Positions 5,057-60,784 of a stretch of DNA of 64,000 nt are shown piece by piece; the first letter of the stretch is position 1, and every line of letters starts with the position of its first letter. This DNA is from Escherichia coli (GTDB lineage Bacteria > Pseudomonadota > Gammaproteobacteria > Enterobacterales > Enterobacteriaceae): NCBI RefSeq assembly GCF_009931435.1, contig NZ_CP043414.1. One strand, given 5' to 3'. The position numbers and the translations under genes are program-made. The notes beneath the pieces were generated by a model, which had not been told where the DNA came from, did no database searches, and worked only from the letters and a program-made list of their open reading frames with translations.

Positions 5057-5082
5057 TGGCAATAAAAGATGACAAAGGCGGA

Positions 5083-6378: not shown

Positions 6379-6435
6379 GTAAGATACTCCAGTTAAGAAA
6401 TCATAAGCCCTGCTCTGCGTCCGATGAGCAAGGCG

Positions 6436-7125: not shown

Positions 7126-7178
7126 GATTTGCCCTGTTGTAATAAATAGGTTGCGATCATTAATGCGACGTCATTATG

Positions 7179-7206
7179 CGTCAGATTTATGACAGATTTA
7201 TGAAAA
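7179..7206 (-). promoter_or_regulatory. Pho box (PhoB binding site) in phoB promoter
   Basis: Reverse complement reads CTTTTCATAAATCTGTCATAAATCTGACG, containing tandem CTGTCAT 7-mers at 11-bp phasing, about 30-60 bp upstream of the phoB start. Confidence 0.8.
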
Positions 7207-7314
7207 GCACGTCGCACATATCTTCAGGTAGTTGATTTCCGTGGCGCAGAAAAAAGCAAATGGCACATCTGTTTGGGTATAATCGCGCCCATGCTTTTTC
7301 GCCAGGGAATCGTT

Positions 7315-8517: not shown

Positions 8518-11500
8518 AAATTCTCAGCCTGCGCCTGAAAAACCTGAACTCGTTAAAAGGCGAATGGAAGATTGATTTCACCCGCGAGCCGTTCGCCAGC
8601 AATGGGCTGTTTGCGATTACCGGCCCAACCGGCGCGGGGAAAACCACCCTGCTGGATGCCATTTGCCTGGCGCTGTATCACGAAACTCCGCGCCTTTCTA
8701 ACGTTTCACAATCGCAAAATGATCTAATGACCCGCGATACCGCCGAATGTCTGGCGGAAGTGGAGTTTGAAGTCAAAGGTGAAGCGTACCGTGCCTTCTG
8801 GAGCCAGAATCGGGCGCGTAACCAGCCAGACGGTAATTTGCAGGTGCCGCGCGTAGAGCTGGCGCGCTGTACCGATGGCAAAATTCTCGCTGACAAAGTG
8901 AAAGATAAGCTGGAACTGACGGCGACGTTAACCGGACTGGATTATGGGCGTTTCACCCGTTCGATGCTGCTTTCGCAGGGGCAATTTGCTGCCTTCCTGA
9001 ATGCCAAACCAAAAGAACGCGCGGAATTGCTCGAGGAATTAACCGGCACCGAAATCTACGGGCAAATCTCTGCGATGGTCTTTGAGCAGCACAAATCGGC
9101 CCGCACTGAGCTGGAGAAACTGCAAGCGCAGGCCAGCGGCGTTGCGTTATTAGCGCCAGAACAGCTGCAATCGCTGACAGAAAGTTTGCAGGTACTCACT
9201 GTCGAAGAGAAACAGTTACTCGCCGCGCAGCAGCAAGAACAACAATCGCTAAACTGGTTAACGCGTCTGGACGAATTGCAGCAAGAAGCCAGCCGACGTC
9301 AGCAGGCATTGCAACAGGCGTTAGCCGAAGAAGAAAAAGCGCAACCTCAACTGGCGGCGCTCAGCCTGGCACAACCGGCGCGAAATCTTCGTCCGCACTG
9401 GGAACGCATCGCAGAACACACTGCGGCACTGGCGCATACTCGCCAGCAGATTGAAGAAGTAAATACTCGCTTACAGCGCACAATGGCGCTTCGTGCGAGC
9501 ATTCGCCACCACGCGGCGAAGCAGTCTGCAGAATTACAGCAGCAGCAACAAAGCCTGAATGCCTGGTTACAGGAACACGACCGCTTCCGTCAGTGGAACA
9601 ACGAACTGGCGGGTTGGCGTGCGCAATTCTCTCAACAAACCAGCGAACGCGAGCATCTGCGGCAGTGGCAGCAACAGTTAACCCATGCAGAGCAAAAACT
9701 TAATTCACTTCCGGCGATCTCGTTGACGTTAAGCGCCGATGAAGTTGCTAGCGCCCAGGCGCAACATGCTGAGCAACGCACGCTGCGTCAGCGCCTGGTC
9801 GCGCTGCATGGACAGATTGTTCCCCAACAAAAACGCCTGGCGCAATTACAGATCGCTATCCAGAATGTCACGCAAGAACAGACGCAACGTAACGCCGCAC
9901 TTAACGAAATGCGCCAGCGTTATAAAGAAAAAACGCAACAACTTGCCGATGTGAAAACCATTTGCGAGCAGGAAGCTCGTATCAAAACGCTGGAAGTTCA
10001 ACGTGCGCAGTTACAGGCGGGTCAGCCTTGCCCACTTTGTGGTTCCACCAGCCACCCGGCGGTCGAGGCGTATCAGGCGCTGGAACCGGGCGTTAATCAG
10101 GCCCGGCTATTAACGCTGGAAAACGAAGTGAAAAAGCTCGGTGAAGAAGGTGCGCCGCTACGTGGGCAACTGGACGCCTTAACGAAGCAGCTTCAGCGTG
10201 ATGAAAACGAAGCGCAAAGCCTCCGACAAGATGAGCAAGCACTTACTCAACAATGGCAAGCTGTCACGGCCAGCCTCAATATCACCTTGCAGCCACAGGA
10301 CGATATTCAACCGTGGCTGGATGCACAAGATGAGCACGAGCGCCAGCTGCGGATACTCAGCCAACGGCATGAATTACAAGGGCAGATTGCTGCGCATAAT
10401 CAACAAATTATCCAGTATCAACAGCAAATTGAACAACGCCAGCAGCAACTCTCTGCGGCATTAGCGAGTTACGCGCTGGCATTGCCACAGGAAAATGAAG
10501 AAGAGAGCTGGTTAGCGACACGTCAGCAAGAAGCGCAGAGCTGGCAACTGCGTCAGAACGAATTAACTACGCTGCAAAACCGTATTCAGCAACTGACGCC
10601 GATTCTGGATACGTTACCGCAAGGTGATGAGTTATCGCACAGCGAAGAAACAGTGGCAATGGAAAACTGGCGGCAAATTCATGAACAATGTCTCGCGTTA
10701 CAAAGCCAGCAGCAGACGTTACAGCAACAGGATGTTCTGGCGGCGCAAAGTCTGCAAAAAGCCCAGGCGCAGTTTGACACCGCGCTACAGGCCAGTGTCT
10801 TTGACGATCAACAGGCGTTCCTTGCGGCGCTAATGGATGAACAAACACTAACCCAACTGGAACAGCTCAAGCAGAATCTGGAAAACCAGCGCCGTCAGGC
10901 GCAAACGCTGGTCACTCAGACAGCTGAAACGCTGGCACAGCATCAGCAACACCGACCTGACGGCCTGGATCTCAGTGTGACGGTGGAGCAGATTCAGCAA
11001 GAGTTAGCGCAAACTCACCAAAAGTTGCGTGAAAACACCACGAGTCAGGGCGAGATTCGTCAACAGCTGAAACAGGATGCGGAAAACCGTCAGCAACAAC
11101 AAACCTTAATGCAGCAAATTGCTCAAATGACGCAGCAGGTTGAGGACTGGGGATATCTTAATTCGCTAATAGGTTCCAAAGAGGGCGATAAATTCCGCAA
11201 GTTTGCCCAGGGGCTGACGCTGGATAATTTAGTCCATCTCGCTAATCAGCAACTTACCCGGTTACACGGGCGCTATCTGTTACAGCGCAAAGCCAGCGAG
11301 GCGCTGGAAGTCGAGGTTGTTGATACCTGGCAGGCAGATGCGGTACGCGATACCCGTACCCTTTCCGGTGGCGAGAGTTTCCTCGTCAGTCTGGCGCTGG
11401 CGCTGGCGCTTTCGGATCTGGTCAGCCATAAAACGCGTATTGACTCGCTGTTCCTTGATGAAGGTTTTGGCACGCTGGATAGCGAAACGCTGGATACCGC

Positions 11501-11657
11501 CCTTGATGCCCTGGATGCCCTGAACGCCAGCGGCAAAACCATCGGTGTGATTAGCCACGTTGAAGCGATGAAAGAGCGTATTCCGGTGCAGATCAAAGTG
11601 AAAAAGATCAACGGACTGGGATACAGCAAACTGGAAAGTGCGTTTGCAGTGAAATAA
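8514..11657 (+). CDS. sbcC: SbcCD nuclease ATPase subunit SbcC (Rad50-like SMC)
   Basis: 1047 aa; N-terminal Walker [10 protein letters not shown], long Q-rich coiled coil, CPLCG zinc hook, C-terminal signature/Walker B ([16 protein letters not shown]...[11 protein letters not shown]). Confidence 0.95.
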
Positions 11658-11782
11658 CTATTCAGCAGGATAATGAATACAGAGGGGCGAATTATCTCTT
11701 GGCCTCACTGGTCGTTATCCTGCAAGCTATCACTTTATTGGCTACGGTGATTGGTAGCCGTTCTGGTGGTTGTGATGGTGGT

Positions 11783-12967
11783 ATGAAAAAAGTTATTTTA
11801 TCTTTGGCTCTGGGCACGTTTGGTTTGGGAATGGCCGAATTTGGCATTATGGGCGTGCTTACGGAGCTGGCACATAACGTAGGTATTTCGATTCCTGCCG
11901 CCGGACATATGATCTCGTATTATGCGCTGGGGGTGGTGGTCGGTGCACCAATCATCGCACTCTTTTCCAGCCGCTACTCGCTCAAACATATCTTGTTGTT
12001 TCTGGTGGCGTTGTGCGTCATTGGCAACGCCATGTTCACGCTCTCTTCGTCTTACCTGATGCTCGCCATTGGTCGGCTGGTTTCCGGCTTTCCGCATGGC
12101 GCTTTTTTTGGCGTCGGGGCGATTGTGTTATCGAAAATTATCAAACCCGGCAAAGTCACCGCCGCCGTGGCGGGGATGGTTTCGGGGATGACAGTTGCCA
12201 ATTTGCTGGGCATTCCGCTGGGGACGTATTTAAGTCAGGAGTTTAGCTGGCGTTACACCTTTTTATTGATCTCTGTGTTTAATATCGCGGTGATGGCATC
12301 GGTCTATTTTTGGGTGCCGGATATTCGCGACGAGGCGAAAGGAAAGCTGCGCGAACAATTTCACTTTTTGCGCAGCCCGGCCCCGTGGTTAATTTTCGCT
12401 GCCACGATGTTTGGCAACGCGGGTGTATTTGCCTGGTTCAGCTACGTAAAGCCATACATGATGTTTATTTCCGGTTTTTCGGAAACGGCGATGACCTTTA
12501 TTATGATGTTAGTTGGGCTGGGGATGGTGTTGGGGAATGTGCTAAGTGGCCGGATTTCAGGACGTTATTCACCACTACGCATTGCGGCAGTGACTGATTT
12601 CATTATTGTGCTGGCATTGCTGATGCTCTTTTTCTTCGGCGGCATGAAAACAACGTCGCTTATTTTTGCTTTTATTTGTTGCGCGGGATTATTTGCCCTC
12701 TCTGCACCGCTGCAAATATTGTTACTGCAAAATGCCAAAGGTGGAGAATTATTAGGTGCCGCAGGTGGGCAAATAGCGTTTAACCTCGGTAGCGCCGTCG
12801 GCGCATATTGCGGAGGTATGATGCTGACGCTGGGGCTGACTTATAATTACGTGGCGCTGCCTGCCGCCCTGCTTTCGTTTGCTGCGATGTCGTCGTTGCT
12901 GCTGTATGGTCGCTATAAGCGCCAGCAAGCGGCGGATAGTCCGGTGCTGGCGAAACCAGTGGGGTAG
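11783..12967 (+). CDS. araJ: MFS transporter AraJ
   Basis: Track ORF 11699..12967; the internal ATG at 11783 gives MKKVILSLALGTFGLGMAEFGIMGVL..., a 12-TM MFS protein; position downstream of sbcC. Confidence 0.85.
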   Translation: MKKVILSLALGTFGLGMAEFGIMGVLTELAHNVGISIPAAGHMISYYALGVVVGAPIIALFSSRYSLKHILLFLVALCVIGNAMFTLSSSYLMLAIGRLVSGFPHGAFFGVGAIVLSKIIKPGKVTAAVAGMVSGMTVANLLGIPLGTYLSQEFSWRYTFLLISVFNIAVMASVYFWVPDIRDEAKGKLREQFHFLRSPAPWLIFAATMFGNAGVFAWFSYVKPYMMFISGFSETAMTFIMMLVGLGMVLGNVLSGRISGRYSPLRIAAVTDFIIVLALLMLFFFGGMKTTSLIFAFICCAGLFALSAPLQILLLQNAKGGELLGAAGGQIAFNLGSAVGAYCGGMMLTLGLTYNYVALPAALLSFAAMSSLLLYGRYKRQQAADSPVLAKPVG

Positions 12968-12984
12968 ATTGCAGCCACGGTGCA

Positions 12985-13095
12985 CGTTGCTTATTGCCGG
13001 ATGCGGCGTGAACACCTTATCCGGCCTACGGCTGCTCATTTTGTAGGCCTGATAAGACGCGGCAAGCGTCGCATCAGGCATGATGCACCAATTGC
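12985..13095. repeat. REP/BIME palindromic elements
   Basis: GCCGGATGCGGCGTGAACACCTTATCCGGCCTAC and GCCTGATAAGACGCGGCAAGCGTCGCATCAGGC type imperfect palindromes between araJ and mak. Confidence 0.8.
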
Positions 13096-13104
13096 CTGGT
13101 TTTT

Positions 13105-14013
13105 TTACTCTTGTGGCCATAACCACGCAGCGCCGCGTACGCCGCTGGAATCACCATGTTTCGCCTTACGCACCGGCGTTTCACATTCGCCGCCGAAGAC
13201 AAATTGTTTAATCAACTGCGGAACCGTTTGATATAAACGATCTACATTGCTCATCCCGCCCCCCAACACAATCACATCCGGATCGAGAATATTCACTACG
13301 TGTGCCAGCGATTTTGCCAGCCGCAGCTCGTAGCGACGCAATGCCAGTTCCGCTACCGGATCGCTTTCTTCTACCAAGCGGATAATTTCACTGCCTTTCA
13401 GCGCATGTCCGCTCAAACGATGATAATCCGTCGCGAATCCCGTGCCCGAAATAAAGGTTTCAATACAACCTTGTTTACCGCAATAACAAGGGACTTCCTC
13501 GCGATAACGCAGTTCATCTTCGTCCATCCACGGTAGCGGATTGTGTCCCCACTCGCCTGCCGTGCCATTGCCGCCGATATGCGCTCGACCATTGAACGCT
13601 ACGCCCGCGCCGCATCCCGTGCCGATAATCACGGCAAATACCGTCTGCGCTCCCGCTGCTGCGCCATCTACCGCTTCCGAGACCGCCAGACAGTTGGCGT
13701 CATTTGCCAACCGCACTTCCCGTTGCAACCGCGCGCTTAAATCTTTATCAAATGGCTGACCGTTAAGCCAGGTTGAATTGGCATTTTTCACCACGCCAGT
13801 GTAAGGCGAAATCGAGCCTGGAATGCCCATGCCTACCGTTCCGCGCTGCCCTGTCGCCTGCTCCGCCATATCAACCAACGTGGCGATCGTTTCGATGGTC
13901 TGATGGTAATCATCACGCGGTGTGGGCAGACGATGACGATACAACTGCTCCCCTGCATCGCCCAGTGCAATCACTTCAGTTTTAGTGCCGCCTAAATCGA
14001 TACCTATACGCAC
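13105..14013 (-). CDS. mak: Fructokinase / manno(fructo)kinase Mak (ROK family)
   Basis: GTG at 14013 gives [14 protein letters not shown]..., ROK sugar kinase with zinc motif [10 protein letters not shown]; the track ORF extends further upstream to 14151. Confidence 0.85.
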
Positions 14014-14137
14014 GGTACTCTCCTTATTTTTTTCAATATCAATAGCGTAGAGACGGACAACCGGATTGGCAATGCAAGGCCGCCGACAATTCGTTATCAT
14101 GCCCGCTAAATTTAACGACAAGGCCGTGGAAATTATC

Positions 14138-15049
14138 ATGCTGTGGTTCAAAAATTTAATGGTTTACCGTCTTAGCCGCGAGATTTCGCTGCGTGCAGAA
14201 GAGATGGAAAAACAGCTAGCCTCGATGGCATTTACCCCATGCGGCAGCCAGGACATGGCGAAGATGGGCTGGGTTCCTCCGATGGGATCGCACAGCGATG
14301 CGTTAACGCACGTTGCCAATGGTCAAATTGTTATCTGCGCGCGCAAAGAAGAAAAAATCCTCCCGTCTCCGGTGATTAAACAGGCGCTGGAAGCAAAAAT
14401 CGCCAAGCTGGAAGCGGAACAGGCGCGCAAGCTGAAGAAAACCGAAAAAGATTCGCTGAAAGATGAAGTGCTGCACTCTCTTCTGCCGCGCGCTTTCAGC
14501 CGTTTCAGCCAAACCATGATGTGGATCGATACGGTAAACGGTTTGATTATGGTGGACTGCGCCAGTGCCAAAAAAGCAGAAGATACGCTGGCATTACTGC
14601 GTAAAAGCCTGGGGTCGTTACCGGTTGTACCATTGAGCATGGAAAACCCGATTGAACTGACGCTGACCGAATGGGTACGCTCTGGTAGTGCGGCACAAGG
14701 CTTCCAGCTGCTTGATGAAGCCGAACTGAAATCGTTGCTGGAAGATGGCGGCGTGATCCGCGCGAAGAAACAAGATTTGACCAGCGAAGAAATCACCAAC
14801 CACATTGAAGCAGGAAAAGTGGTGACTAAACTGGCGCTCGACTGGCAGCAGCGCATTCAGTTTGTGATGTGCGACGATGGTTCACTCAAGCGTCTGAAGT
14901 TCTGCGACGAGCTGCGCGATCAAAACGAAGATATCGACCGTGAAGATTTTGCCCAACGTTTTGATGCCGATTTCATCCTGATGACCGGTGAACTGGCAGC
15001 ATTAATCCAAAACCTGATCGAAGGATTAGGTGGCGAAGCACAACGTTAA
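14138..15049 (+). CDS. rdgC: Recombination-associated protein RdgC
   Basis: ATG at 14138 gives [16 protein letters not shown]..., 303 aa; divergent from mak as in E. coli. Confidence 0.9.
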
Positions 15050-15074
15050 TTGCTGATTTGCCTTTAATGCCGGA

Positions 15075-15115
15075 TGCGACGCCTGCGGCGTCTTATCCGG
15101 CGTACGAATCCACAC
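15075..15115. repeat. REP element
   Basis: CCGGATGCGACGCCTGCGGCGTCTTATCCGG palindrome immediately 3' of rdgC. Confidence 0.7.
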
Positions 15116-15126
15116 CAGGCATATAA

Positions 15127-15582
15127 TCATTCGCTACGGCGGGCAATAATTTTTAGCGCAGCAATATTATGCGTTTTACGCCGTAACTGATCCAACCGTC
15201 TCATCCCTATTCGCCTGTCAGCGGCACGCAGAATATTCACTAACCCCCATTTATCGCTGGTACATTGTTTCGTTAACAGCTCCGCTTTTGGGGTATCAAT
15301 ATATTCACGCAATAAATCAGAAATTGAACAAATATCCGTCAGATAAGGATACCAGCAAGTTTCACCATGAAAATTACGCACTCCACCATTGCCTGCCATA
15401 AAGTCTTTTGGGTAATCCCAGATCACGTCTTTATCCAACGTGATCCAATAACGCGGTAAATCGGAGCTTCCACCATTTTGGCTGCGCATGGGATAACGGG
15501 TACAGTGAATTTGCAGGTTGATCGTTGGCGTCAGTAAGTCATAAATCTCCCTCTGTAACTTGCTCCAGGGGCGTTGTGTCAT
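15127..15582 (-). CDS. Hypothetical 151-aa cytoplasmic protein, second gene of an accessory two-gene operon
   Basis: ORF MTQRPWSKLQREIYDLLTPTINLQIHCTRYPMRSQNGG...; its ATG (15582) overlaps the upstream gene's TGA (ATGA, 15579-15582), implying translational coupling; local composition is AT-rich. No family recognised. Confidence 0.6.
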   Translation of the reverse strand: MTQRPWSKLQREIYDLLTPTINLQIHCTRYPMRSQNGGSSDLPRYWITLDKDVIWDYPKDFMAGNGGVRNFHGETCWYPYLTDICSISDLLREYIDTPKAELLTKQCTSDKWGLVNILRAADRRIGMRRLDQLRRKTHNIAALKIIARRSE

Positions 15583-17858
15583 TGTTTTTCCTCAAGCCGG
15601 TTACGCGCTTCACTGCGAATTTGCCGCGTTGCCCCGGTTTTCACTAAATGACGTAACTGCGAAAGATCGGGCTGATCAACAAATAAGATTAATGATGCAT
15701 CCTCCTTTAACCACGCCGTTTTCACATCGGCAGCCAACTGTGGATTATTAATAGCCAGCGCCCGATCCTGTGACTCAGTCAATGTCGTTAACAAAGAGGC
15801 TGGGGTATGTACATTGCGCAACGCCGTCTGCCGCAAATGATCATTGTGACTTTTCAGCAATCCGCACCACCATTCATCATCTGATTTATCTTTTATCGTA
15901 TCCAGCTCCGCAAAAATATCGCTTTCCTCATGATTCCAGCGGTGTAATCCCCTTTCACTTTGTCTACGGGTGCTATTTTTCATACTGACAACAGACAACG
16001 CCCAGTCGGAGTTAAAACGATACTGTTGATCGAGTTTGTTGATAATTCCGGAGGGTAAATCTTCATTATCAAATAGCTGGTTTCGCATCCGATAGCGGTA
16101 TTCAGCAGGTAAATAAACCAGTAAATCGATGGCATTATTAAACATCTCTTCGTCAATAATACCATTATCAATCAGCGCCAGCTGTACTTCGTAGGCTTGC
16201 TCTTGATCTTCTTGCCGTTTACTCATCATTAATTTTAAGGTGTGTTGCCATAATTGTTTCTTATACTCCAGAGGTAATAATTTATCGCGTGCCAGCTCAT
16301 ACCAGATGCTGGGAATGTCATGCTGATTCAGTAGATAACTAATCACTTCCTTCGAGGTCAGATAACGCATGCCGTCACGTAAGTTGTGCACATCTTCTTT
16401 TGCCAAAGTCAGTTGACGCGACTCCGGCAAAGCGACCAATAACGCCTTCACGATATTTTTATTTTCTTTATTATCCAGATACATTTGTTCTGCGATACGT
16501 TCAACATCCTCTGTCCTCAGGGTCGCTGACAGTTGGGTGATTTTTAGTTCAGTAAGCGTCCGGGCTAATGCTTGACGAACTTTCAGCGATTTATCTTTAC
16601 TCAACAACACCGCTTGTTGTGCGGTTAAATCGGTTCCGGTAATTCTTTCGCGTAACTCCGGAGCTTCGCTATTTATCAATTCATCGACCACTGCAGTTGG
16701 AACCAGCCAGGCGTAATCGTAATGGCTGATTAATGTCTTGCGCACACTGAGAAAAGGGCTTTGACTTAACGACACAACAATATCAGGAGAAAGATTATCC
16801 TGTCTGGCCTGCTCCAGCTGTACGCTCTCGACGGGTACAGACATTAATTTTTTATTCACTTCGGCGGATATATTGCTGTTTTTAACCAGTCCTCTGGCAA
16901 CAGCTTCATCTTTAATTATTTCGTCGGTAAGCAAATGCATCTGTTGAGCGGGCCAGGACTGCGCCATCGATTCACGCGTCTGGTCATCGGGGTGCTGTAA
17001 CAGTTGCAGCATAACGGCGGTTGACAAACGCTCTATATGAGTCAGAAAACGTGCCACCAGTGGATCTTCATGCTTTATTTTATCCGCAAGGAAATTATCG
17101 AGTTTCCCCGTTTCAATCCATTTTAATTTCTCATTAATTTCAGGAGCAGCTTTATCTCGAAAAAGAGGTAAACCCTGAACGATATTGTCTACGACGCTAT
17201 CATAGTCAGGATACGCATTGGAAATATTATCGGTTTCGATTTCACTATGATCATAAAGATTAGGCGTCACCAGTGAATAAACTTTTTGAATATTCTCGTC
17301 CCAGTTATATTCTTCACCGCTTTCATCTTCATTGATATAAAACTCAGCTTTAATGACCTCAAATTGCGTTGCTTTATCGGAAACAATAATGCCTCGCGCG
17401 CTAATTCCTTTCATCACTTCAAAGTTGTGATCATTATAATCAGCATAAACCAAACCTTTCGCTGTCATCTGCCCTTTGACATACGCGAAATCATGATTAA
17501 TAAAGTTGTCGACAATAACATTACCTAATACAATCAGATGACCATTACCTGACAGATAATCATCATAATCGCCGGAAATCGTTAAATTACCGTTCACCAC
17601 CAATTTATTTTGATTGCTGAAGTTAGCGGGTAATGATAGGTCACCATTATGATAATACCAACGGATATTATCTTTCAGCATATAAGCAGCTTCCATACTA
17701 TCGTTGGTTGCCGCTTTAACCACGTTGCGCTCATCTGCCGTCATAAGATGAAAGTCAGAGGTGATAAGGTCCTCGCTACTGATCCACTCTGTGGCACATG
17801 CATTGCCAGTCATAAAAAACACGACCATACAGATGACCAATATATTAATTCTATTCAT
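15579..17858 (-). CDS. Hypothetical large secreted protein (about 759 aa) with Sec signal peptide and helical-repeat C-terminal region
   Basis: Track ORF 15579..17867 starts at a GTG; the ATG at 17858 gives MNRINILVICMVVFFMTGNACA|TEW (hydrophobic core, AxA cleavage site). N-terminal region is beta-rich with Asn/Gly repeats, the C-terminal two thirds is helical with repeated L-x-x-[LA] units. Low GC (roughly 32-38% in sampled 60-bp stretches). Start choice uncertain by 3 codons. Confidence 0.65.
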   Translation of the reverse strand: MNRINILVICMVVFFMTGNACATEWISSEDLITSDFHLMTADERNVVKAATNDSMEAAYMLKDNIRWYYHNGDLSLPANFSNQNKLVVNGNLTISGDYDDYLSGNGHLIVLGNVIVDNFINHDFAYVKGQMTAKGLVYADYNDHNFEVMKGISARGIIVSDKATQFEVIKAEFYINEDESGEEYNWDENIQKVYSLVTPNLYDHSEIETDNISNAYPDYDSVVDNIVQGLPLFRDKAAPEINEKLKWIETGKLDNFLADKIKHEDPLVARFLTHIERLSTAVMLQLLQHPDDQTRESMAQSWPAQQMHLLTDEIIKDEAVARGLVKNSNISAEVNKKLMSVPVESVQLEQARQDNLSPDIVVSLSQSPFLSVRKTLISHYDYAWLVPTAVVDELINSEAPELRERITGTDLTAQQAVLLSKDKSLKVRQALARTLTELKITQLSATLRTEDVERIAEQMYLDNKENKNIVKALLVALPESRQLTLAKEDVHNLRDGMRYLTSKEVISYLLNQHDIPSIWYELARDKLLPLEYKKQLWQHTLKLMMSKRQEDQEQAYEVQLALIDNGIIDEEMFNNAIDLLVYLPAEYRYRMRNQLFDNEDLPSGIINKLDQQYRFNSDWALSVVSMKNSTRRQSERGLHRWNHEESDIFAELDTIKDKSDDEWWCGLLKSHNDHLRQTALRNVHTPASLLTTLTESQDRALAINNPQLAADVKTAWLKEDASLILFVDQPDLSQLRHLVKTGATRQIRSEARNRLEEKQ

Positions 17859-18001
17859 AATCTTCACTGATATTTATATCAACCTTGATGAATTATGAAT
17901 ATATCGGAAATCGAAAAAATCGCAGCAAAGGAAATATTATTATGGGTTAAAGAGAAGATATTTCAGAAAAATGCCCTCCCGTTCATGGGGAAGGCGAGGA
18001 A

Positions 18002-18286
18002 TTACAGATAGCGGCACAGATAAGAGGTGGGTTCGGCAACTTGCAGATGAAACTCGCTGTGACCGGGAACATTAAACACCGAACCGGCTTCATACACTTG
18101 CCAGTCGGTCGCGTCAGGCAGTAACACATTCAGCGCACCACTGATTACCGTCATCTCTTCAGGCTCAGCGGTGCTGAAGGTGTATTCGCCTTCAACCATA
18201 ACACCCACGCTGGCGCGACCAGTGCTGCTGCTGGAAAAGCCGATCGATTTCACTTTGCCGGAAAAGTACTCATTACTTTGAAGCAT
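18002..18286 (-). CDS. ppnP: Pyrimidine/purine nucleoside phosphorylase PpnP (YaiE)
   Basis: 94 aa, [37 protein letters not shown]...; synteny aroM-ppnP. Confidence 0.9.
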
Positions 18287-18357
18287 AAACTGGCCCTGTC
18301 TGGTAGTTGAACATCTACTTCACTATAGGGGCCAGAGGCGCTGGCTGTCACGCAAAA

Positions 18358-19035
18358 TTACACCAGTAATTCCGCAGCTAGCCTTGCAATCAATACGTTA
18401 GAGAGCAAGACAGGAACATCGAGCTGTTTTTGCAGTAAATCGCGATGACGCTGGTTAAATCCCAAACAATCCAGCATGATGACATCTGCGCCTTTTGCCA
18501 GTAATTCTTTCCCGGCATCAATGATTTTTTGTTCCGAATCATGAATGGGGTTACCCAATGAAAATACTGGCGGTTTCTGCAAAATTTGCCATTTTTGCGC
18601 CTGAACGGTCAGTAGCTCTTCAACCGGTACGATAACCCCCACCTGATGATCTTCAACAATAGATGAAACCAGCGGTGGCAATATTCGCGACGGCTCAAGA
18701 AAGATCGTATTACGCGCGGTCATACTCCTAATGTTTGCCGTACTCATTAATATAATGACGTCGTAACCCTGATTATCGAGCACTTCAACCACACCTTGCA
18801 GGTCTCGCTCCACTTTGCGACGCGAAACATGGGCCAGCTGGTTGTCATTTAATAATGTGAGAATTGTGTCTTCGCCTGCTTCTGGCGCGTACTCCGCCAT
18901 CACTTCTTCGCGGCTTAACTTCCCCAGCAGGCTATGATGGGAAATATTATCTTCGTCAATGTATTCTGTCAGGAGCGGCAAAACTTCCTGCATAGGTACA
19001 ATGCCGATGGTCAGGATCGCCAACGACGCACTCAT
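18358..19035 (-). CDS. aroM: AroM protein
   Basis: 225 aa, [26 protein letters not shown]...; downstream of aroL-yaiA. Confidence 0.9.
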
Positions 19036-19292
19036 TGTTCTTCCACCTTACTTTTATTTCGTCGTTAATTACCGGGCAAGCGCTAAGCACCACTGCCGAC
19101 ACTTACCTGTGCTACAAATGACAAAAAGCGTAGCAGCAGACCTGCACGGCATAATGTAAAGATTCCAAATGATTCCAGTAATGGATTGTTATTGTTTAAT
19201 ATTCTAATTATTTGAAAAACATGAATTGTGAAAAATGTGACGCAGATCCCTTGTGGTGGCACTCAGAATCCCTTCCGAGCAGTCTGATGCGG

Positions 19293-19493
<201 letters not shown>

Positions 19494-19533
19494 TTATTTC
19501 ACGGGATGAACGTTAAGTATAGGCGCTCGAAAA

Positions 19534-20058
19534 TCAACAATTGCTCGTCTGTGCCAGGGCGCTGCGAATTTCAGAAATCACCTGGCTGGGTTCGTTTGTT
19601 GCGTCGATGATAATATGCGCAACTTCGCGATATAGCGCATCGCGTTCTTCCAGCACTTCCTGAACTTCTTCGCTCAGCGGTTTCCCCGTTAAGGTTGGCC
19701 GTAAATCTTCTTCCGGTGCAGCTTGCAGTCGGTTAACCAGGACTGATACTGGCGCACACAAATAAACCACGATCCCGTTATTTTGCATAAAGTGACGATT
19801 AAATTCCGTCAGGATAATGCCGCCGCCCGTGGCGATAACGGTGGATGGCGCAGTTACCGCTTCCAACGCCGCCGTTTCTCTGGCGCGGAATCCCGCCCAC
19901 TCTTCCCTTTCGACGATCTCCGCGACCGTCATATTGAGCTGTGATTGCAACCACTGGTCGGTATCGACAAATCGACGGTTAAGCGAATCGGCAAGGGCCA
20001 TTCCGACCGTTGTTTTACCACAGCCCCGAGGCCCGATCAGAAAAAGAGGTTGTGTCAT
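19534..20058 (-). CDS. aroL: Shikimate kinase II AroL
   Basis: 174 aa, [26 protein letters not shown]... (P-loop). Confidence 0.95.
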
Positions 20059-32179: not shown

Positions 32180-35110
<2,931 letters not shown>

Positions 35111-40064: not shown

Positions 40065-40294
40065 GATTGTCTGCTCCCCTGTCTTGTTATGGGAGCAGTA
40101 TTTCGTTGCGGGTCAGTTTGATAAAGGAATTAAAACGTCTTGTTAAGAACAAAGCGTTTTTAGAAAAAAACTGGCAATGGTTAGCGAATATGCGCATTTT
40201 GCTATTTTTAACAAACATCGCCTGGTGCAGCGCTCACGCCTCTTATCATGCATACAAATACTGGGGCCGGATAAATTTTATGCTCCAATGCTAT

Positions 40295-42715: not shown

Positions 42716-43030
42716 GCATCCGCGCACGCCAGCCGGATGCGGCGTGAACGCCTTATCCGCCTACATTTCGCCCATAAACCGTAGGCATGATAAGACGCGC
42801 ATAGCGTCGCATCAGGCATCTGCGCACAACTGCCGGATGCGGCGTGAACGCCTTATCCGGCCTACATTTCGCCCATGAGCCGTAGGCATGATAAGACGCG
42901 CATAGCGTCGCATCAGGCATCTGCGCACAACTGCCGGATGCGGCGTGAACGCCTTATCCGGCCTACATTTCGCCCATGAGCCGTAGGTATGATAAGACGC
43001 GTCAGCGTCGCATCAGGCATCTGCGCACGA
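42716..43030. repeat. Tandem BIME/REP array, about 3 copies of a ~100-bp unit
   Basis: The unit ...GCCGGATGCGGCGTGAACGCCTTATCCGGCCTACATTTCGCCCATGAGCCGTAGGCATGATAAGACGCGCATAGCGTCGCATCAGGCATCTGCGCACAACT... recurs at about 42731, 42831 and 42931. Confidence 0.85.
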
Positions 43031-44959: not shown

Positions 44960-45295
<336 letters not shown>

Positions 45296-51770: not shown

Positions 51771-52604
51771 ATGCAGAAAGATGAGCAGACGGAATACAAA
51801 ACCGTGCGCGGCTTAACCCGCGGTCTAATGTTATTAAATATGTTAAATAAACTCGATGGCGGTGCCAGCGTCGGGCTGCTGGCGGAGCTCAGCGGCCTGC
51901 ATCGCACCACTGTGCGGCGACTGCTGGAAACGCTGCAGGAAGAGGGATATGTCCGGCGCAGTACCTCCGATGACAGTTTTCGTCTGACCATCAAAGTGCG
52001 GCAATTAAGCGAAGGATTTCGTGACGAACAATGGATTTCTGCACTGGCAGCCCCGCTGCTGGGCGATCTGTTGCGCGAAGTGGTATGGCCGACAGATGTG
52101 TCCACGCTGGATGTTGATGCAATGGTGGTACGCGAAACCACCCACCGTTTCAGCCGTTTATCTTTTCACCGGGCAATGGTCGGACGGCGTTTACCGCTCC
52201 TGAAAACCGCCTCGGGCCTGACCTGGCTGGCCTTTTGCCCGGAACAAGAACGCAAGGAGTTAATCGAAATGTTAGCCGCCCGTCCCGGTGATGACTATCA
52301 GCTGGCACGGGAGCCGTTAAAGCTGGAAGCCATTCTGGCGCGCGCACGCAAAGAGGGTTACGGACAGAACTACCGTGGCTGGGATCAGGAAGAGAAGATC
52401 GCCTCCATTGCCGTGCCCCTACGCAGTGAACAACGGGTGATTGGCTGTCTGAATCTGGTGTATATGGCAAGCGCAATGACCATCGAACAGGCAGCGGAAA
52501 AGCATCTTCCGGCGCTACAACGGGTAGCAAAACAGATCGAAGAAGGGGTTGAATCGCAGGCTATTCTGGTGGCCGGACGGCGAAGCGGCGTGCATTTACG
52601 CTAG
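51771..52604 (+). CDS. mhpR: IclR-family transcriptional activator MhpR
   Basis: ATG at 51771 gives MQKDEQTEYKTVRGLTRGLMLLNMLNKLDGGASVGLLAELSGLHRTTVRRLLETL... (277 aa); the track ORF starts at 51657. Confidence 0.9.
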   Translation: MQKDEQTEYKTVRGLTRGLMLLNMLNKLDGGASVGLLAELSGLHRTTVRRLLETLQEEGYVRRSTSDDSFRLTIKVRQLSEGFRDEQWISALAAPLLGDLLREVVWPTDVSTLDVDAMVVRETTHRFSRLSFHRAMVGRRLPLLKTASGLTWLAFCPEQERKELIEMLAARPGDDYQLAREPLKLEAILARARKEGYGQNYRGWDQEEKIASIAVPLRSEQRVIGCLNLVYMASAMTIEQAAEKHLPALQRVAKQIEEGVESQAILVAGRRSGVHLR

Positions 52605-52718
52605 TTGCGCCAATGTGTAATTTGGCCCATTCTCATCGTTATTCGCCCATTTGCCCACATGCACAGTACGGGCTGCACGCTACGCTAATGCCATCAATAC
52701 TGTGATGTGGAGCAAATC

Positions 52719-53495
52719 ATGAAAATTACTCAAATTCGTAATGCCACCCAAATTATCCAATACGCTGGCAAAACATTTCTTATTGACCCGTTACTCGCGC
52801 CTAAAGGAAGTTATCCGGGTTTTGCCGGAACGGCACGCGCAGAAATCCGCAATCCAACGGTAGAATTACCGTGCGATTTAACAACGTTACTCAACGTTGA
52901 CGCCCTAATAGTGACCCATTTGCATGAAGATCACTGGGACGAAACAGCCTCCCGCGTCGTCCCCAAAGATAAACGGATTTATGTGCAAAATGAGCAAGAT
53001 GCTGAATCACTGCATAAACAAGGATTTACGCATCTTACCGTACTTGCCGACGAGACTAAATTTGGCGATATTACTCTGCATAAAACGACAGGGCAGCACG
53101 GCTCCGATCACACCTATGCAGACCCGGCTATGGCGAAGCGTTTAGGCGCAGCCTGCGGCGTTGTTTTCCAGCACCCGACAGAGAAAACGCTCTATCTGGC
53201 TGGCGATACCCTCTGGCGTGATGACGTCGAGGCTACAATGCTAACTTTCCAACCAGAAGTGGTGGTGTTGAATGCCGGATTTGCGCATGTTCTGGGGCAT
53301 GGCGCGATAATTATGGGAGCTGAAGATATTCTCAAAACACATTTTACCCTGCCAGAAGCGCAAATTGTCGCGACACATATGGAGGCCGTAAACCACTGTT
53401 TGCTGACGCGTGATGCGCTCAAGGAATACGCCAGAGATAATCAAATTATCGAATTTGTGAACGTACCAGAAGATGGTGAAACGTTGACATTCTAA
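52719..53495 (+). CDS. Metallo-beta-lactamase-fold hydrolase, uncharacterised (258 aa)
   Basis: ATG at 52719 preceded by GGAG; MKITQIRNATQIIQYAGKTFLIDPLL... with the MBL metal-binding signature THLHEDHWDE (HxHxDH) and downstream His/Asp residues. Not part of the K-12 mhpR-lacI junction as I recall it. Confidence 0.7.
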   Translation: MKITQIRNATQIIQYAGKTFLIDPLLAPKGSYPGFAGTARAEIRNPTVELPCDLTTLLNVDALIVTHLHEDHWDETASRVVPKDKRIYVQNEQDAESLHKQGFTHLTVLADETKFGDITLHKTTGQHGSDHTYADPAMAKRLGAACGVVFQHPTEKTLYLAGDTLWRDDVEATMLTFQPEVVVLNAGFAHVLGHGAIIMGAEDILKTHFTLPEAQIVATHMEAVNHCLLTRDALKEYARDNQIIEFVNVPEDGETLTF

Positions 53496-53514
53496 TTCGG
53501 AGATAAAGAGTGTT

Positions 53515-54468
53515 ATGCGCCCGCTAACTGTTGCCATTATCGCCGTTGCCGGTTTTAGTCCTTTTCACCTTTCCGTACCGTTTATCGTGTTTAGCGAAAA
53601 AATGGCGGAGAAAAAACGCTTTCATGTAATTATCTGCGCTGAAAAGCCGGGAAACGTGGACTCTGCCGATGGGTTTTCCGTAACCGCCACCCATGACTAT
53701 ACGGCAGTCATCCAGGCGGATATTGTGATAATTCCTTACTGGGGAACAATTACACAAAAACCGCCACAAAAACTGCTGGAAGCCTTAACGACCGCACGAG
53801 ATAACGGGGCACAGATTGTCGGGCTTTGCCTGGGCACGTTTGTGCTCGGCTATGCAGGTTTACTGAACAATAAGCGTGCTGCCACGCACTGGGAGTTCGA
53901 GCGTGAATTTCAGGCACGTTTTCCACAAACACATCTGGATATTAACGCGTTGTATGTAGACGATGATGGCATTATTACCTCTGCCGGTACTGCCGCGGCG
54001 CTGGATTGCTGTTTGTATATTGTTCGGCAACATTTTGGCAGCGACTATGCTAACCATATTGCCCGACGGATGGTCGTACCGCCATATCGCACCGGCGGTC
54101 AGGCGCAGTTTATAGAGCAACCGGTGCCGAAAAATACCCATGATGAACGCATTAACCTCCTGCTGGATTACCTGCGGCAAAACATTGCGCAACAGCATGA
54201 TCTCGACTCGCTGGCTCAGCGAGTAATGATGAGTCGCCGCACACTAACCCGTCATTTTATGAAAGCGACCGGTTCGAGTATCGCCGAATGGCTCATCACT
54301 GAACGCTTACGCCGTAGCCAGGAACTGTTGGGATCCAGTCAGTTGCCCGTTGAGCGGATAGCGGCTGAGGTGGGTTTTCTCTCACCTGTGACCTGGCGTC
54401 AGCATTTTAAATCTCACTTCGGCGTCAGCCCCGCAGAATGGCGCAAAACCTTTCGTGGTATGGCATGA
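53515..54468 (+). CDS. GlxA/GbdR-type transcriptional regulator (DJ-1/PfpI-like domain plus AraC-type HTH)
   Basis: 317 aa; N-terminal DJ-1/PfpI-like region (IVGLCLGTFVLGYAGLL), C-terminal AraC-type HTH (LDSLAQRVMMSRRTLTRHF...IAAEVGFLSPVTWRQHFKSHFGVSPAEWRK). Starts 19 bp after the MBL gene, same strand. Confidence 0.75.
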   Translation: MRPLTVAIIAVAGFSPFHLSVPFIVFSEKMAEKKRFHVIICAEKPGNVDSADGFSVTATHDYTAVIQADIVIIPYWGTITQKPPQKLLEALTTARDNGAQIVGLCLGTFVLGYAGLLNNKRAATHWEFEREFQARFPQTHLDINALYVDDDGIITSAGTAAALDCCLYIVRQHFGSDYANHIARRMVVPPYRTGGQAQFIEQPVPKNTHDERINLLLDYLRQNIAQQHDLDSLAQRVMMSRRTLTRHFMKATGSSIAEWLITERLRRSQELLGSSQLPVERIAAEVGFLSPVTWRQHFKSHFGVSPAEWRKTFRGMA

Positions 54469-54504: not shown

Positions 54505-55587
54505 GTGAAACCAGTAACGCTATACGATGTCGCGGAGTATGCCGGTGTCTCTTATCAGACCGTTTCCCGCGTGGTGAATCAGGCCAGCCACGTTTCAGCG
54601 AAAACGCGGGAAAAAGTGGAAGCGGCGATGGCGGAGCTAAATTACATTCCCAACCGCGTAGCACAACAGTTAGCGGGCAAACAGTCGTTGCTGATTGGCG
54701 TTGCCACCTCCAGTCTGGCCCTGCACGCACCGTCGCAAATTGTCGCGGCGATTAAATCTCGCGCCGATCAACTGGGTGCCAGCGTGGTGGTGTCGATGGT
54801 AGAAAGAAGCGGTGTCGAAGCCTGTAAAGCGGCAGTACACAATCTTCTCGCGCAACGCGTAAGTGGTCTGATCATCAACTATCCGCTGGATGACCAGGAT
54901 GCCATTGCTGTGGAGGCAGCCTGCGCTAATGTTCCGGCGCTATTTCTTGATGTCTCTGACCAGACTCCCATCAACAGTATTATTTTTTCCCATGAAGACG
55001 GTACACGGCTGGGCGTAGAGCATTTGGTCGCATTGGGTCACCAGCAAATCGCGCTGTTAGCGGGCCCATTAAGTTCTGTCTCGGCGCGTCTGCGTCTGGC
55101 GGGCTGGCATAAATATCTTAAACACAATCAAATTCAACCGATAGCGGAACGGGAAGGCGACTGGAGCGCCATGTCCGGTTTTCATCAAACCATGCAGATG
55201 CTGAATGAGGGCATCATTCCTACTGCGATGCTGGTTGCCAACGATCAGATGGCGCTGGGTGCAATGCGCGCCATTACCGAGTTCGGGCTGCGCGTCGGCG
55301 CGGATATCTCGGTAGTGGGATACGACGATACCGAAGACAGCTCGTGTTATATCCCGCCATTAACGACCATCAAACAGGATTTTCGCCTGCTTGGGCAAAC
55401 CAGCGTGGACCGCTTGCTGCAACTCTCTCAGGGCCAGGCAGTGAAGGGCAATCAGCTGTTGCCCGTCTCACTGGTGAAACGAAAAACCACCCTGCCACCC
55501 AATACGCAAACCGCTTCTCCCCAGGCGTTGGCTGATTCCTTAATGCAGCTGGCGCGACAAATTTCCCGACTGGAAAGCGAGCAGTGA
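54505..55587 (+). CDS. lacI: Lactose operon repressor LacI
   Basis: GTG start at 54505 gives VKPVTLYDVAEYAGVSYQTVSRVVNQASHVSAKTREKVEAAMAELNYIPNRVAQQLAGK...; 360 aa. Confidence 0.95.
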   Translation: MKPVTLYDVAEYAGVSYQTVSRVVNQASHVSAKTREKVEAAMAELNYIPNRVAQQLAGKQSLLIGVATSSLALHAPSQIVAAIKSRADQLGASVVVSMVERSGVEACKAAVHNLLAQRVSGLIINYPLDDQDAIAVEAACANVPALFLDVSDQTPINSIIFSHEDGTRLGVEHLVALGHQQIALLAGPLSSVSARLRLAGWHKYLKHNQIQPIAEREGDWSAMSGFHQTMQMLNEGIIPTAMLVANDQMALGAMRAITEFGLRVGADISVVGYDDTEDSSCYIPPLTTIKQDFRLLGQTSVDRLLQLSQGQAVKGNQLLPVSLVKRKTTLPPNTQTASPQALADSLMQLARQISRLESEQ

Positions 55588-55600
55588 GCGCAACGCAATT
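55580..55600. promoter_or_regulatory. lac operator O3
   Basis: GCAGTGAGCGCAACGCAATT overlapping the lacI 3' end. Confidence 0.8.
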
Positions 55601-55603
55601 AAT

Positions 55604-55619
55604 GTGAGTCAGCTCACTC
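55604..55619. promoter_or_regulatory. CRP (CAP) binding site of lac promoter
   Basis: TGTGAGTCAGCTCACT (TGTGA-N6-TCACT palindrome). Confidence 0.85.
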
Positions 55620-55635
55620 ATTAGGCACCCCAGGC

Positions 55636-55666
55636 TTTACACCTGATGTGTCCGACTCGTATGTTG
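55636..55666 (+). promoter_or_regulatory. lacZYA promoter (-35 TTTACA, -10 TATGTTG)
   Basis: TTTACA at 55636-55641 and TATGTTG at 55660-55666, 18-bp spacer; the spacer sequence differs from the K-12 version I recall. Confidence 0.8.
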
Positions 55667-55671
55667 TATGA

Positions 55672-58784
<3,113 letters not shown>

Positions 58785-58790
58785 TAATAA

Positions 58791-60089
<1,299 letters not shown>

Positions 60090-60094
60090 GTAAT

Positions 60095-60140
60095 CAATGT
60101 CGGATGCGGCGCGAGCGCCTTATCCGACCAACATATCAGG
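60095..60140. repeat. REP element in lacY-lacA spacer
   Basis: GTCGGATGCGGCGCGAGCGCCTTATCCGAC palindrome. Confidence 0.8.
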
Positions 60141-60154
60141 ACGGAATGATCGCA

Positions 60155-60784
60155 ATGAACATGCCAATGACAGAAAGAATAAAAGCAGGCAAGCTATTTA
60201 CCGATATGTGCGAAGGCTTACCGGAAAAAAGACTTCGTGGGAAAACGTTAATGTATGAGTTTAATCACTCGCATCCATCAGAAGTTGAAAAAAGGGAAAG
60301 CCTGCTTAAAGAAATGTTTGCCACGGTAGGGGAAAACGCCTGGGTAGAACCACCCGTCTATTTCTCTTACGGCTCCAACATCCATATAGGCCGCAATTTT
60401 TATGCAAATTTCAATTTAACCATTGTCGATGATTACACGGTAACGATCGGTGATAACGTACTGGTTGCCCCCAACGTTACCATTTCCGTTACGGGACACC
60501 CTGTACACCATGAATTGAGAAAAAACGGCGAGATGTACTCTTTTCCGATAACGATTGGCAATAACGTCTGGATCGGAAGTCATGTGGTTATTAATCCAGG
60601 CGTCACCATCGGGGATAATTCTGTTATTGGCGCGGGTAGTGTCGTCACAAAAGACATTCCACCAAACGTCGTGGCGGCTGGCATTCCTTGTCGGGTTATT
60701 CGCGAAATAAACGACCGGGATAAGCAATATTATTTCAAAGATTTTAAAGTTGAATCGCCAGTTTTAATAAGCAAAATTGCCTGA
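60155..60784 (+). CDS. lacA: Galactoside O-acetyltransferase LacA (hexapeptide repeat)
   Basis: ATG at 60155 gives MNMPMTERIKAGKLFTDMCEGLPEKRLRGKTLMYEFNHS...; the track ORF starts at 60104. Confidence 0.93.
   Translation: MNMPMTERIKAGKLFTDMCEGLPEKRLRGKTLMYEFNHSHPSEVEKRESLLKEMFATVGENAWVEPPVYFSYGSNIHIGRNFYANFNLTIVDDYTVTIGDNVLVAPNVTISVTGHPVHHELRKNGEMYSFPITIGNNVWIGSHVVINPGVTIGDNSVIGAGSVVTKDIPPNVVAAGIPCRVIREINDRDKQYYFKDFKVESPVLISKIA

What the first reader, a model, noticed from the sequence alone, without database searches (positions are those of the whole stretch)
55630..55670. Natural variant lac promoter spacer and divergent lacZ/lacI alleles (non-K-12 lineage)
The CAP site, O1, O2 and O3 are conserved, but the -35/-10 spacer reads TTTACACCTGATGTGTCCGACTCGTATGTTGTATG, whereas the K-12 sequence I recall is TTTACACTTTATGCTTCCGGCTCGTATGTTGTGTGG. 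LacZ and LacI also carry scattered amino-acid substitutions relative to recalled K-12 proteins. This rules out a K-12 cloning-vector origin and may alter basal lac promoter strength.
Basis: partly seen in the sequence, partly recalled or inferred. Interest (0 to 1): 0.25.

Follow-up and report, generated by a model that had tools for sequence, protein, structure and literature searches.

The report
Clade I Escherichia lac promoter allele
This is the ordinary chromosomal lac operon control region of a deep-branching E. coli relative (cryptic clade I): every protein-binding element matches K-12 and only the unconstrained bases between them have drifted, so it is real but unremarkable.

Summary

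Against K-12, the 122-bp lacI-lacZ intergenic region has 9 substitutions:
- 5 in the 18-bp -35/-10 spacer
- 2 between -10 and +1
- 1 at the centre of the CRP site
- 1 after the Shine-Dalgarno

None falls in the -35, the -10, the CRP half-sites, O1 or O2. The geometry is canonical: 18-bp spacer, CRP at -61.5, O3 at -82, O2 at +412.

The divergence is not specific to lac. The alignable window (from position 21464) is about 95-96% identical to K-12. It is 98.3-99.6% identical to the same 18 of 5,426 complete "E. coli" genomes, among them the published cryptic clade I strain 2013C-4282. All 18 carry this intergenic region unchanged.

Only 3-4 of the 9 differences are clade I-specific. At the others K-12 (phylogroups A/B1) is the odd one out.

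A published RNA polymerase energy matrix predicts a change of +0.27 kT (about 0.76x) for P1, well within model error.

Natural lac promoter polymorphism at low-impact positions has already been described. The verdict is a known system showing neutral lineage divergence, of low interest. One weak hypothesis remains: a predicted overlapping promoter register 7 bp downstream.

The parts
54505..55587 (+). lacI (GTG start, 360 aa), intact. It has 10 amino-acid differences from K-12, none in the N-terminal DNA-binding domain.
   Evidence: dS 0.20, dN/dS 0.07
55580..55600 (+). Auxiliary operator O3 (AGCAGTGAGCGCAACGCAATT), centred at -82. It has one change from K-12 at the outermost base (55580 G>A, which is also LacI G359E).
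55600..55621 (+). CRP (CAP) site TAATGTGAGTCAGCTCACTCAT, centred at -61.5. The half-sites TGTGA/TCACT are intact. The central base is C where K-12 has T; C is shared by all sampled non-A/B1 Escherichia alleles.
55636..55641 (+). lacP1 -35 hexamer TTTACA, unchanged
55642..55659 (+). 18-bp -35/-10 spacer CCTGATGTGTCCGACTCG, with 5 substitutions versus K-12 and unchanged length. Nine of its 18 columns vary among Escherichia alleles.
55660..55665 (+). lacP1 -10 hexamer TATGTT, unchanged
55666..55671 (+). Discriminator GTATGA (K-12: GTGTGG). 55668 G>A is clade I-specific. 55671 A is shared by all natural alleles sampled except K-12 and E2348/69.
55672..55692 (+). Primary operator O1 AATTGTGAGCGGATAACAATT, exact. 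Its first base is the K-12 transcription start (+1), assigned here by homology.
55699..55702 (+). lacZ Shine-Dalgarno AGGA, unchanged. The next base, 55703, is T (K-12 has A).
55710..58784 (+). lacZ, intact, 1024 aa, with 47 amino-acid differences from K-12
   Evidence: the exact protein is on record in 32 blocks of the public assembly collection
56073..56093 (+). Auxiliary operator O2 inside lacZ, exact, centred at +412
58836..60089 (+). lacY, intact, 98.2% identical to K-12
60155..60784 (+). lacA. The K-12 stop position (60764-60766) reads TTA, so the protein is 6 residues longer.

Best explanation
This is the native lac operon control region of an Escherichia cryptic clade I strain, a sister lineage of E. 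coli proper that is still named E. coli in databases.

It should work as the textbook K-12 region does. The sigma-70 promoter P1 (TTTACA, 18 bp, TATGTT) is activated by cAMP-CRP bound at -61.5. It is repressed by LacI at O1, helped by looping to O3 (-82) and O2 (+412).

The differences from K-12 are ordinary lineage divergence. Substitutions have accumulated at roughly the neutral rate at bases that no protein reads (spacer, discriminator, centre of the CRP site), while purifying selection kept every contact element and all spacings. About half of the differences are changes on the K-12 (A/B1) side rather than in this lineage.

Shown here: sequence conservation, geometry, lineage, and population distribution. 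Inferred: that transcription start, strength and regulation equal those of K-12.
For: (a) Architecture. O1 and O2 are exact, the -35 and -10 are exact, the spacer is 18 bp, and CRP, O3 and O2 are centred at -61.5, -82 and +412.

(b) Divergence across the window. The window is 93-98.5% identical to K-12 per kb from 21 to 64 kb. The lacI/lacZ stretch (93.0-94.4%) lies at the low end but within that range, and E. whittamii is more distant everywhere.

(c) Lineage. The same 18 of 5,426 complete genomes are nearest relatives at lac (98.2-99.2%) and at window 1-20000 (98.3-99.6%), followed by a gap to 95.5% or less. One of them, 2013C-4282, is a published clade I genome, and the published ANI values match.

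(d) Allele frequency. The 122-bp intergenic region is 100% identical in all 18 clade I genomes and in 4 further assemblies or metagenome contigs.

(e) Neutral pattern. 0 of 60 element positions differ from K-12, against 9 of 62 other positions (JC distance about 0.16). Synonymous divergence is 0.20 in lacI and 0.25 in lacZ.

(f) Spacer freedom. In Citrobacter sedlakii, Kluyvera and Tatumella the spacer sequence is entirely different. TTTACA, the 18-bp spacing, the -10 (TATGTT; TATTTT in Kluyvera) and O1 are retained.

(g) Predicted strength. The energy matrix reproduces the published WT and UV5 values. It gives P1 -5.08 kT here against -5.35 kT in K-12. All natural alleles, including other genera, fall within -5.04 to -5.41 kT.

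(h) Literature. Natural lac promoter SNPs fall at low-impact positions, under 1 kT. Natural variants with up to 15 polymorphisms differ about three-fold in transcription.
Against: No expression data exist for this exact allele. The energy matrix is additive and was trained on near-K-12 sequences, so five simultaneous spacer changes are an extrapolation.

The spacer sequence can matter in some promoters, for example position -18 sensed by sigma-70 R451. That base is unchanged here, however.

The intergenic region has 0 of 122 segregating sites within clade I, while the surrounding 5.8 kb has 183. That is about 3.8 expected, P about 0.02 if uniform. This hints at constraint beyond the annotated elements, or at a local sweep.
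Confidence: 0.9

Rival explanations
1. Lineage-specific regulatory re-tuning. The clade I-specific substitutions reshape the set of overlapping RNA polymerase registers. They weaken the upstream P2-like register and create a new one 7 bp downstream: -35-like CTGATG at 55643-55648, an 18-bp spacer, -10-like TATGAA at 55667-55672, and a start near 55679 inside O1. That register would be LacI-repressible but out of phase with CRP, which would alter catabolite control or basal expression.
For: Sliding the RNAP energy matrix gives -6.26 kT for the +7 register here. Every other allele sampled scores -4.56 or weaker there (other Escherichia -2.7 to -4.4; C. sedlakii -4.56; Kluyvera +0.24). The score is better than P1 itself (-5.08). 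The gain comes from clade I-specific 55645 T>G (-0.95) and 55668 G>A (-1.46), plus the shared 55671 A (-0.79). The -22 (P2) register falls from -2.65 to -1.05, and the -15 register from -2.09 to +1.25. The haplotype is fixed in all clade I genomes examined.
Against: The matrix is unspecific. The 64-kb window holds 49 sites at or below -6.26 kT and 503 at or below P1's score, mostly inside genes.

TATGAA lacks the T at -7, the most conserved base of sigma-70 promoters (established knowledge), and the sort-seq matrix probably under-penalises this.

The clade I-specific change 55643 works against the register (+1.0 kT), so the changes are not coherently directional.

The substitution density matches the synonymous rate. 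Published measurements show natural variants stay within about three-fold.
Confidence: 0.07
2. The lac segment was acquired by horizontal transfer or introgression from another species into an otherwise typical E. coli.
For: lacI and lacZ are somewhat more diverged from K-12 (dS 0.20-0.25) than lacY and lacA (dS 0.07), so divergence along the operon is mosaic. Transfers of the lac locus between phylogroups have been reported.
Against: The flanks are equally diverged, at 95-96% from 21 to 64 kb. The first 20 kb picks out the same 18 nearest genomes. The locus sits at the canonical mhp-lac-cyn position. The next outgroup, E. whittamii, is more distant than E. coli proper in every kb.
Confidence: 0.02
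3. Sequencing or assembly error, or an engineered construct.
For: None.
Against: An identical 122-bp sequence occurs in 18 independent complete genomes and 4 other assemblies or metagenome contigs. lacZYA is full length in its chromosomal context. Vector-derived copies found in unrelated genomes carry the exact K-12 allele plus a polylinker.
Confidence: 0.005

Closest known systems
E. coli K-12 lac promoter-operator region (lacP1, CRP site, O1/O2/O3)
   Same: Same elements, order and spacings. The -35, -10, CRP half-sites, O1 and O2 are identical. It sits in the same flanking genes, lacI and lacZYA, at the same chromosomal locus.
   Different: There are 9 substitutions in the 122 intergenic bp (5 in the spacer, 2 in the discriminator, 1 at the CRP centre, 1 after the SD), plus 1 at the outer base of O3. 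lacI and lacZ differ by 5.5% and 6.5% in nucleotide sequence.
Natural lac promoter haplotypes of E. coli phylogroups B2/D/E/F and of E. whittamii (surveyed by Razo-Mejia et al. 2014 and Vlkova & Silander 2022)
   Same: Shares with them C at the CRP centre, A at -1 (all sampled except K-12 and E2348/69) and T at 7 bp before the ATG; TG at 55649-55650 it shares only with PE164 and one B2 strain. The pattern of variation is the same, confined to low-impact positions. At ATG -7/+6 the window has the 'TC' genotype that the 2022 preprint found mostly in E. marmotae.
   Different: It carries three to four further substitutions not seen in those alleles: 55645 G, 55655 A and 55668 A, plus 55643 C, which is shared only with one other divergent strain.
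lac promoters of Citrobacter sedlakii, Kluyvera spp. and Tatumella morbirosei
   Same: TTTACA, an 18-bp spacer, TATGTT (TATTTT in Kluyvera) and an exact O1. The predicted P1 energy is the same within 0.4 kT (computed for C. sedlakii and Kluyvera; not for Tatumella).
   Different: Their spacers and flanks are unrelated in sequence. This shows how free the spacer is, and the window allele is far closer to E. coli.

Membership tests
lac operon regulatory region (lacP1 / CRP class I / LacI O1-O2-O3) | Sigma-70 -35 TTTACA and -10 TATGTT separated by 18 bp | tested here: met
   55636-55641 and 55660-55665, with an 18-bp spacer
lac operon regulatory region (lacP1 / CRP class I / LacI O1-O2-O3) | CRP site with TGTGA-N6-TCACT centred at -61.5 | tested here: met
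   55603-55607 and 55614-55618; the centre at 55610/55611 is 61.5 bp from 55672. Only a central N6 base differs.
lac operon regulatory region (lacP1 / CRP class I / LacI O1-O2-O3) | O1 at +11, O2 401 bp downstream and O3 92 bp upstream (centre to centre) | tested here: met
   O1 at 55672-55692 is exact. O2 at 56073-56093 is exact. O3 at 55580-55600 matches at 20 of 21 bases.
lac operon regulatory region (lacP1 / CRP class I / LacI O1-O2-O3) | Flanked by intact lacI upstream and lacZYA downstream | tested here: met
lac operon regulatory region (lacP1 / CRP class I / LacI O1-O2-O3) | Transcription starts at the A of AATTGTGAGC and is IPTG-inducible and cAMP-dependent | not testable with these tools
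   Inferred from identity of all contact elements. It needs primer extension and a reporter assay.
Escherichia cryptic clade I (C-I) | More than about 98.3% identity to C-I genomes and about 96% to E. coli sensu stricto (published whole-genome ANI) | tested here: met
   Over this window only: 98.3-99.6% to 18 genomes including the C-I strain 2013C-4282, and 95.5% or less to the other ~5,400 genomes. Whole-genome ANI was not possible.
Escherichia cryptic clade I (C-I) | C-I-specific marker gene used for PCR typing (PMC10100065) | not tested
   The marker lies in a genomic island that was not looked for in the window.
K-12-derived cloning vector / lacZ-alpha cassette | Exact K-12 promoter allele followed by truncated lacZ-alpha and a polylinker | tested here: not met
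   There are 9 intergenic differences, and full-length lacZYA in chromosomal synteny. True vector copies in other assemblies are exact K-12.

The most novel reading that the evidence does not exclude
Three clade I-specific or enriched substitutions (55645 T>G, 55668 G>A, 55671 A) create a second RNA polymerase register 7 bp downstream of P1: CTGATG, 18 bp, TATGAA. A published energy matrix scores it stronger than P1 (-6.26 versus -5.08 kT), while the upstream P2-like register is weakened. If that register fires, clade I strains would have a LacI-repressible but CRP-independent component of lac transcription. That would mean a lineage-wide shift in catabolite control of the best-studied bacterial promoter.
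Probability: 0.07. Interest if true: 0.3.

Novelty: already known. Interest (0 to 1): 0.08.

Why it matters
It matters little beyond bookkeeping. It identifies the window as chromosomal DNA of Escherichia cryptic clade I rather than K-12 or a vector.

It also gives a clean natural footprint of the lac control region. Every experimentally defined contact element is invariant across clade I, E. coli proper and E. whittamii, and the -35, the 18-bp spacing, O1 and the -10 (one base different in Kluyvera) hold in Citrobacter, Kluyvera and Tatumella. The spacer between -35 and -10 drifts at about the synonymous rate.

It is a reminder that K-12 carries the less widespread state at several textbook positions: the CRP-site centre, -1, and the base after the SD.

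The only point worth an experiment is the predicted +7 register.

Tried and rejected
(1) lac-specific horizontal transfer. I compared per-kb identity to K-12, a B2 strain, a clade I genome, E. whittamii and Escherichia sp. E1V33, and ran a separate search of window 1-20000. Divergence extends across the window and the nearest relatives are the same, so this was rejected.

(2) A change in P1 strength. I computed it with the Brewster/Kinney matrix after reproducing the published control values. The result is +0.27 kT, which is negligible.

(3) Loss of the overlapping P2 promoter as a functional change. The matrix shows weakening at the -22 and -15 registers. However, the matrix was inferred without CRP and gives no gain for P1 from those substitutions, and my library search for lac P1/P2 returned nothing. 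This is left as part of the minor rival.

(4) The simple consensus promoter scan finds only P1, plus a chance site overlapping the lacZ start that is also present in K-12. It found no terminators.

(5) An Rfam scan found nothing in the lac region.

(6) The genome-collection scan with the O1 19-mer returned no hit for E. marmotae, E. ruysiae, E. fergusonii or E. albertii representatives. Polarity of the changes therefore rests on E. whittamii and more distant genera only.

(7) The CRP energy matrix was not available to me, so the effect of the central T>C rests on the published statement of less than 1 kT. I infer, but could not verify, that this statement refers to the same site.

Full report
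**What is there**

Window 55558-55740 (+ strand) is the lac operon control region. In order it contains:

| Feature | Coordinates | Note |
|---|---|---|
| lacI 3' end | stop at 55585-55587 | |
| O3 | 55580-55600 | |
| CRP site | 55600-55621 | TGTGA at 55603-07, TCACT at 55614-18; centre 61.5 bp before 55672 |
| -35 | 55636-55641 | TTTACA |
| Spacer | 55642-55659 | 18 bp |
| -10 | 55660-55665 | TATGTT |
| O1 | 55672-55692 | |
| Shine-Dalgarno | 55699-55702 | AGGA |
| lacZ ATG | 55710 | |
| O2 | 56073-56093 | inside lacZ |

O1 and O2 are exact matches to K-12. The centre-to-centre distances are the canonical 92 bp (O3-O1) and 401 bp (O1-O2). The consensus scan recovers P1 with its 18-bp spacer.

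**Check of the observation**

I fetched MG1655 (NC_000913.3 355000-404999) and aligned it.

- Nine substitutions lie in the 122-bp intergenic region: 55610, 55643, 55645, 55649, 55650, 55655, 55668, 55671 and 55703.
- One more (55580) changes the outermost base of O3 and also LacI G359E.
- lacI differs at 59 of 1083 nt (10 aa) and lacZ at 201 of 3075 nt (47 aa).
- Both genes are intact and under purifying selection, with dN/dS of 0.07 and 0.09.
- None of the 9 intergenic differences hits the 60 positions of the -35, -10, CRP half-sites, O1, the O3 remainder or the SD (P=0.0017).
- Among 12 Escherichia alleles, 1 of 18 variable columns lies in an element (P=3e-5), and nine of the 18 lie in the spacer.

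**Which lineage**

The divergence is not a lac peculiarity.

- Across positions 21464-64000 the window is 93-98.5% identical to K-12 per kb. The lacI/lacZ stretch, at 93.0-94.4%, is at the low end but within range.
- A search of 5,426 complete E. coli genomes with the lac operon finds 18 genomes at 98.2-99.2%, then a gap to 95.4%.
- A search with window 1-20000 (the sbcC, malZ, proY and brnQ region) finds the same 18 at 98.3-99.6%, then 95.5%.
- One of the 18, strain 2013C-4282, is listed as a complete-genome cryptic clade I strain in PMC10100065. That paper reports ANI above 98.3% within clade I and above 95.9% to E. coli proper, which matches these figures.
- E. whittamii (clade II) is more distant in every kb, as the species tree predicts.

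The window is therefore chromosomal DNA of a clade I strain. Horizontal acquisition of lac is not supported.

**How common is the allele, and which changes are its own**

- The 122-bp region is 100% identical in all 18 clade I genomes and in four further contigs that encode the identical LacZ.
- About 2,066 other genomes are 95-99% identical to it, and 3,280 (the K-12 type) are 90-95% identical.
- I aligned representatives of phylogroups A, B1, B2, E and F, plus E. whittamii, Escherichia sp. E1V33 and a further divergent strain.
- C at the CRP centre, A at -1 and T at 55703 are shared by most or all of the non-K-12 alleles sampled, so there K-12 (with its A/B1 relatives at the CRP centre) carries the less widespread state. 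TG at 55649-50 is shared only with PE164 and one B2 strain.
- Peculiar to clade I are 55645 G, 55655 A, 55668 A and 55580 A. 55643 C is shared only with strain SCPM-O-B-8794.
- Within seven clade I lac loci there are 183 segregating sites in 5.8 kb, but none between 55548 and 55791.

**Is the spacer constrained**

A scan of one genome per GTDB species with the O1 19-mer recovered natural lac promoters in Citrobacter sedlakii, three Kluyvera species and Tatumella.

- All keep TTTACA, an 18-bp gap, TATGTT (TATTTT in Kluyvera) and O1, while their spacers are unrelated in sequence.
- In the window, the non-element intergenic positions differ from K-12 at 9 of 62 (JC about 0.16). Synonymous divergence is 0.20 in lacI and 0.25 in lacZ.
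- The spacer therefore drifts at about the neutral rate, while its length is fixed.

**Predicted effect on strength**

I took the RNA polymerase energy matrix for lac (-41 to -1) from Brewster et al. 2012, Text S2. It reproduces their published values for wild type (-5.347 kT) and lacUV5 (-6.992 kT).

- The window's P1 scores -5.08 kT, a change of +0.27 kT (about 0.76-fold). This is far inside the model's error of about 1 kT.
- Every natural allele examined, including Citrobacter and Kluyvera, scores between -5.04 and -5.41 kT.
- Position -18, which sigma-70 R451 senses in some promoters, is unchanged.
- Razo-Mejia et al. surveyed 91 E. coli lac promoters. They found the natural SNPs at low-impact positions, with binding-energy changes under 1 kT except at O3.
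- Vlkova and Silander measured 18 natural variants with up to 15 polymorphisms and found about three-fold variation in transcription.
- At the two sites they link to expression noise (7 bp before and 6 bp after the ATG), the window has T and C. This is their rare 'TC' class, which they consider possibly ancestral.

**A residual hypothesis**

Sliding the same matrix along the region gives -6.26 kT for a register 7 bp downstream of P1: CTGATG at 55643-48, 18 bp, TATGAA at 55667-72. Every other allele sampled scores -4.56 or weaker there (other Escherichia -2.7 to -4.4). The P2-like register at -22 weakens from -2.65 to -1.05 kT.

I give this little weight, for three reasons:
- The matrix finds 49 sites at least as good in this 64-kb window, and 503 as good as the real P1, mostly inside genes.
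- The -10-like hexamer lacks the nearly invariant T at -7.
- One clade-specific change (55643) works against the register.

It can be tested by mapping 5' ends.

**Verdict**

The feature is the known lac promoter-operator in a known sister lineage of E. coli. Its differences from K-12 are neutral lineage divergence at unconstrained bases, with no predicted functional consequence. Interest is low.

Noticed in passing
window 52601-54435: About 1.8 kb is present here but absent from K-12, between mhpR and lacI. It holds an MBL-fold hydrolase (52707-53495) and a GlxA-family regulator that some genomes annotate as OvrA of O-island 19 (53515-54468). The K-12 match resumes 69 bp before the lacI GTG, so the lacI promoter region is retained with two substitutions.
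   Followed up: partly
window 60764-60784: lacA stop-loss. The K-12 stop position reads TTA, so the reading frame runs 6 codons further (LISKIA). Another clade I genome (L001), K-12 and a B2 strain keep the stop.
   Followed up: partly
window 58836-60766: lacY and lacA are much less diverged from K-12 (dS 0.07) than lacI and lacZ (dS 0.20-0.25). In lacY, identity to E. coli proper (98.0%) nearly equals identity to another clade I genome (98.6%). This may reflect gene flow across the clade boundary.
   Followed up: no
window 42784-42963 (-) and 44991-45269 (+): There are two tandem arrays (2 and 3 copies) of the ~100-bp naRNA4 / REP325 element (Rfam RF02564), flanking the mhpT-yaiL segment. K-12 has arrays at the same places.
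   Followed up: no
window 40102-40267: The tauA-frmR junction lacks the 5.2-kb yaiS-yaiP-yaiX-yaiO block of K-12. The clade I genome closest at the lac operon (L001, 2017-02-2CC) carries a different island there (uhpC and an ABC transporter). This is a variable hotspot.
   Followed up: no
window 32201-35110 (-): An intact 969-aa autotransporter ORF (ehaB/yaiT) is only 80-91% identical to K-12, where the gene is split by IS3. It is the most divergent stretch of the window.
   Followed up: no
loci L009, L016, L019, L028, L035, L044, L046: The O1 scan of species-representative genomes picked up exact K-12 lacP with lacZ-alpha and a polylinker, or synthetic lacO/T7-lacO cassettes. They occur in assemblies of Caldipriscus (MAG), Lamprocystis, Photorhabdus, Xenorhabdus, an Alicyclobacillus plasmid, Psychromonas and Herbaspirillum. 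These look like vector contamination or engineered strains.
   Followed up: no
locus L018 (E. coli SCPM-O-B-8794) and L061 (RMDEC465): SCPM-O-B-8794 carries yet another divergent lac promoter allele, with 10 of 122 differences from the window including two between the CRP site and the -35. The clade I strain RMDEC465 has a frameshifted lacZ.
   Followed up: no
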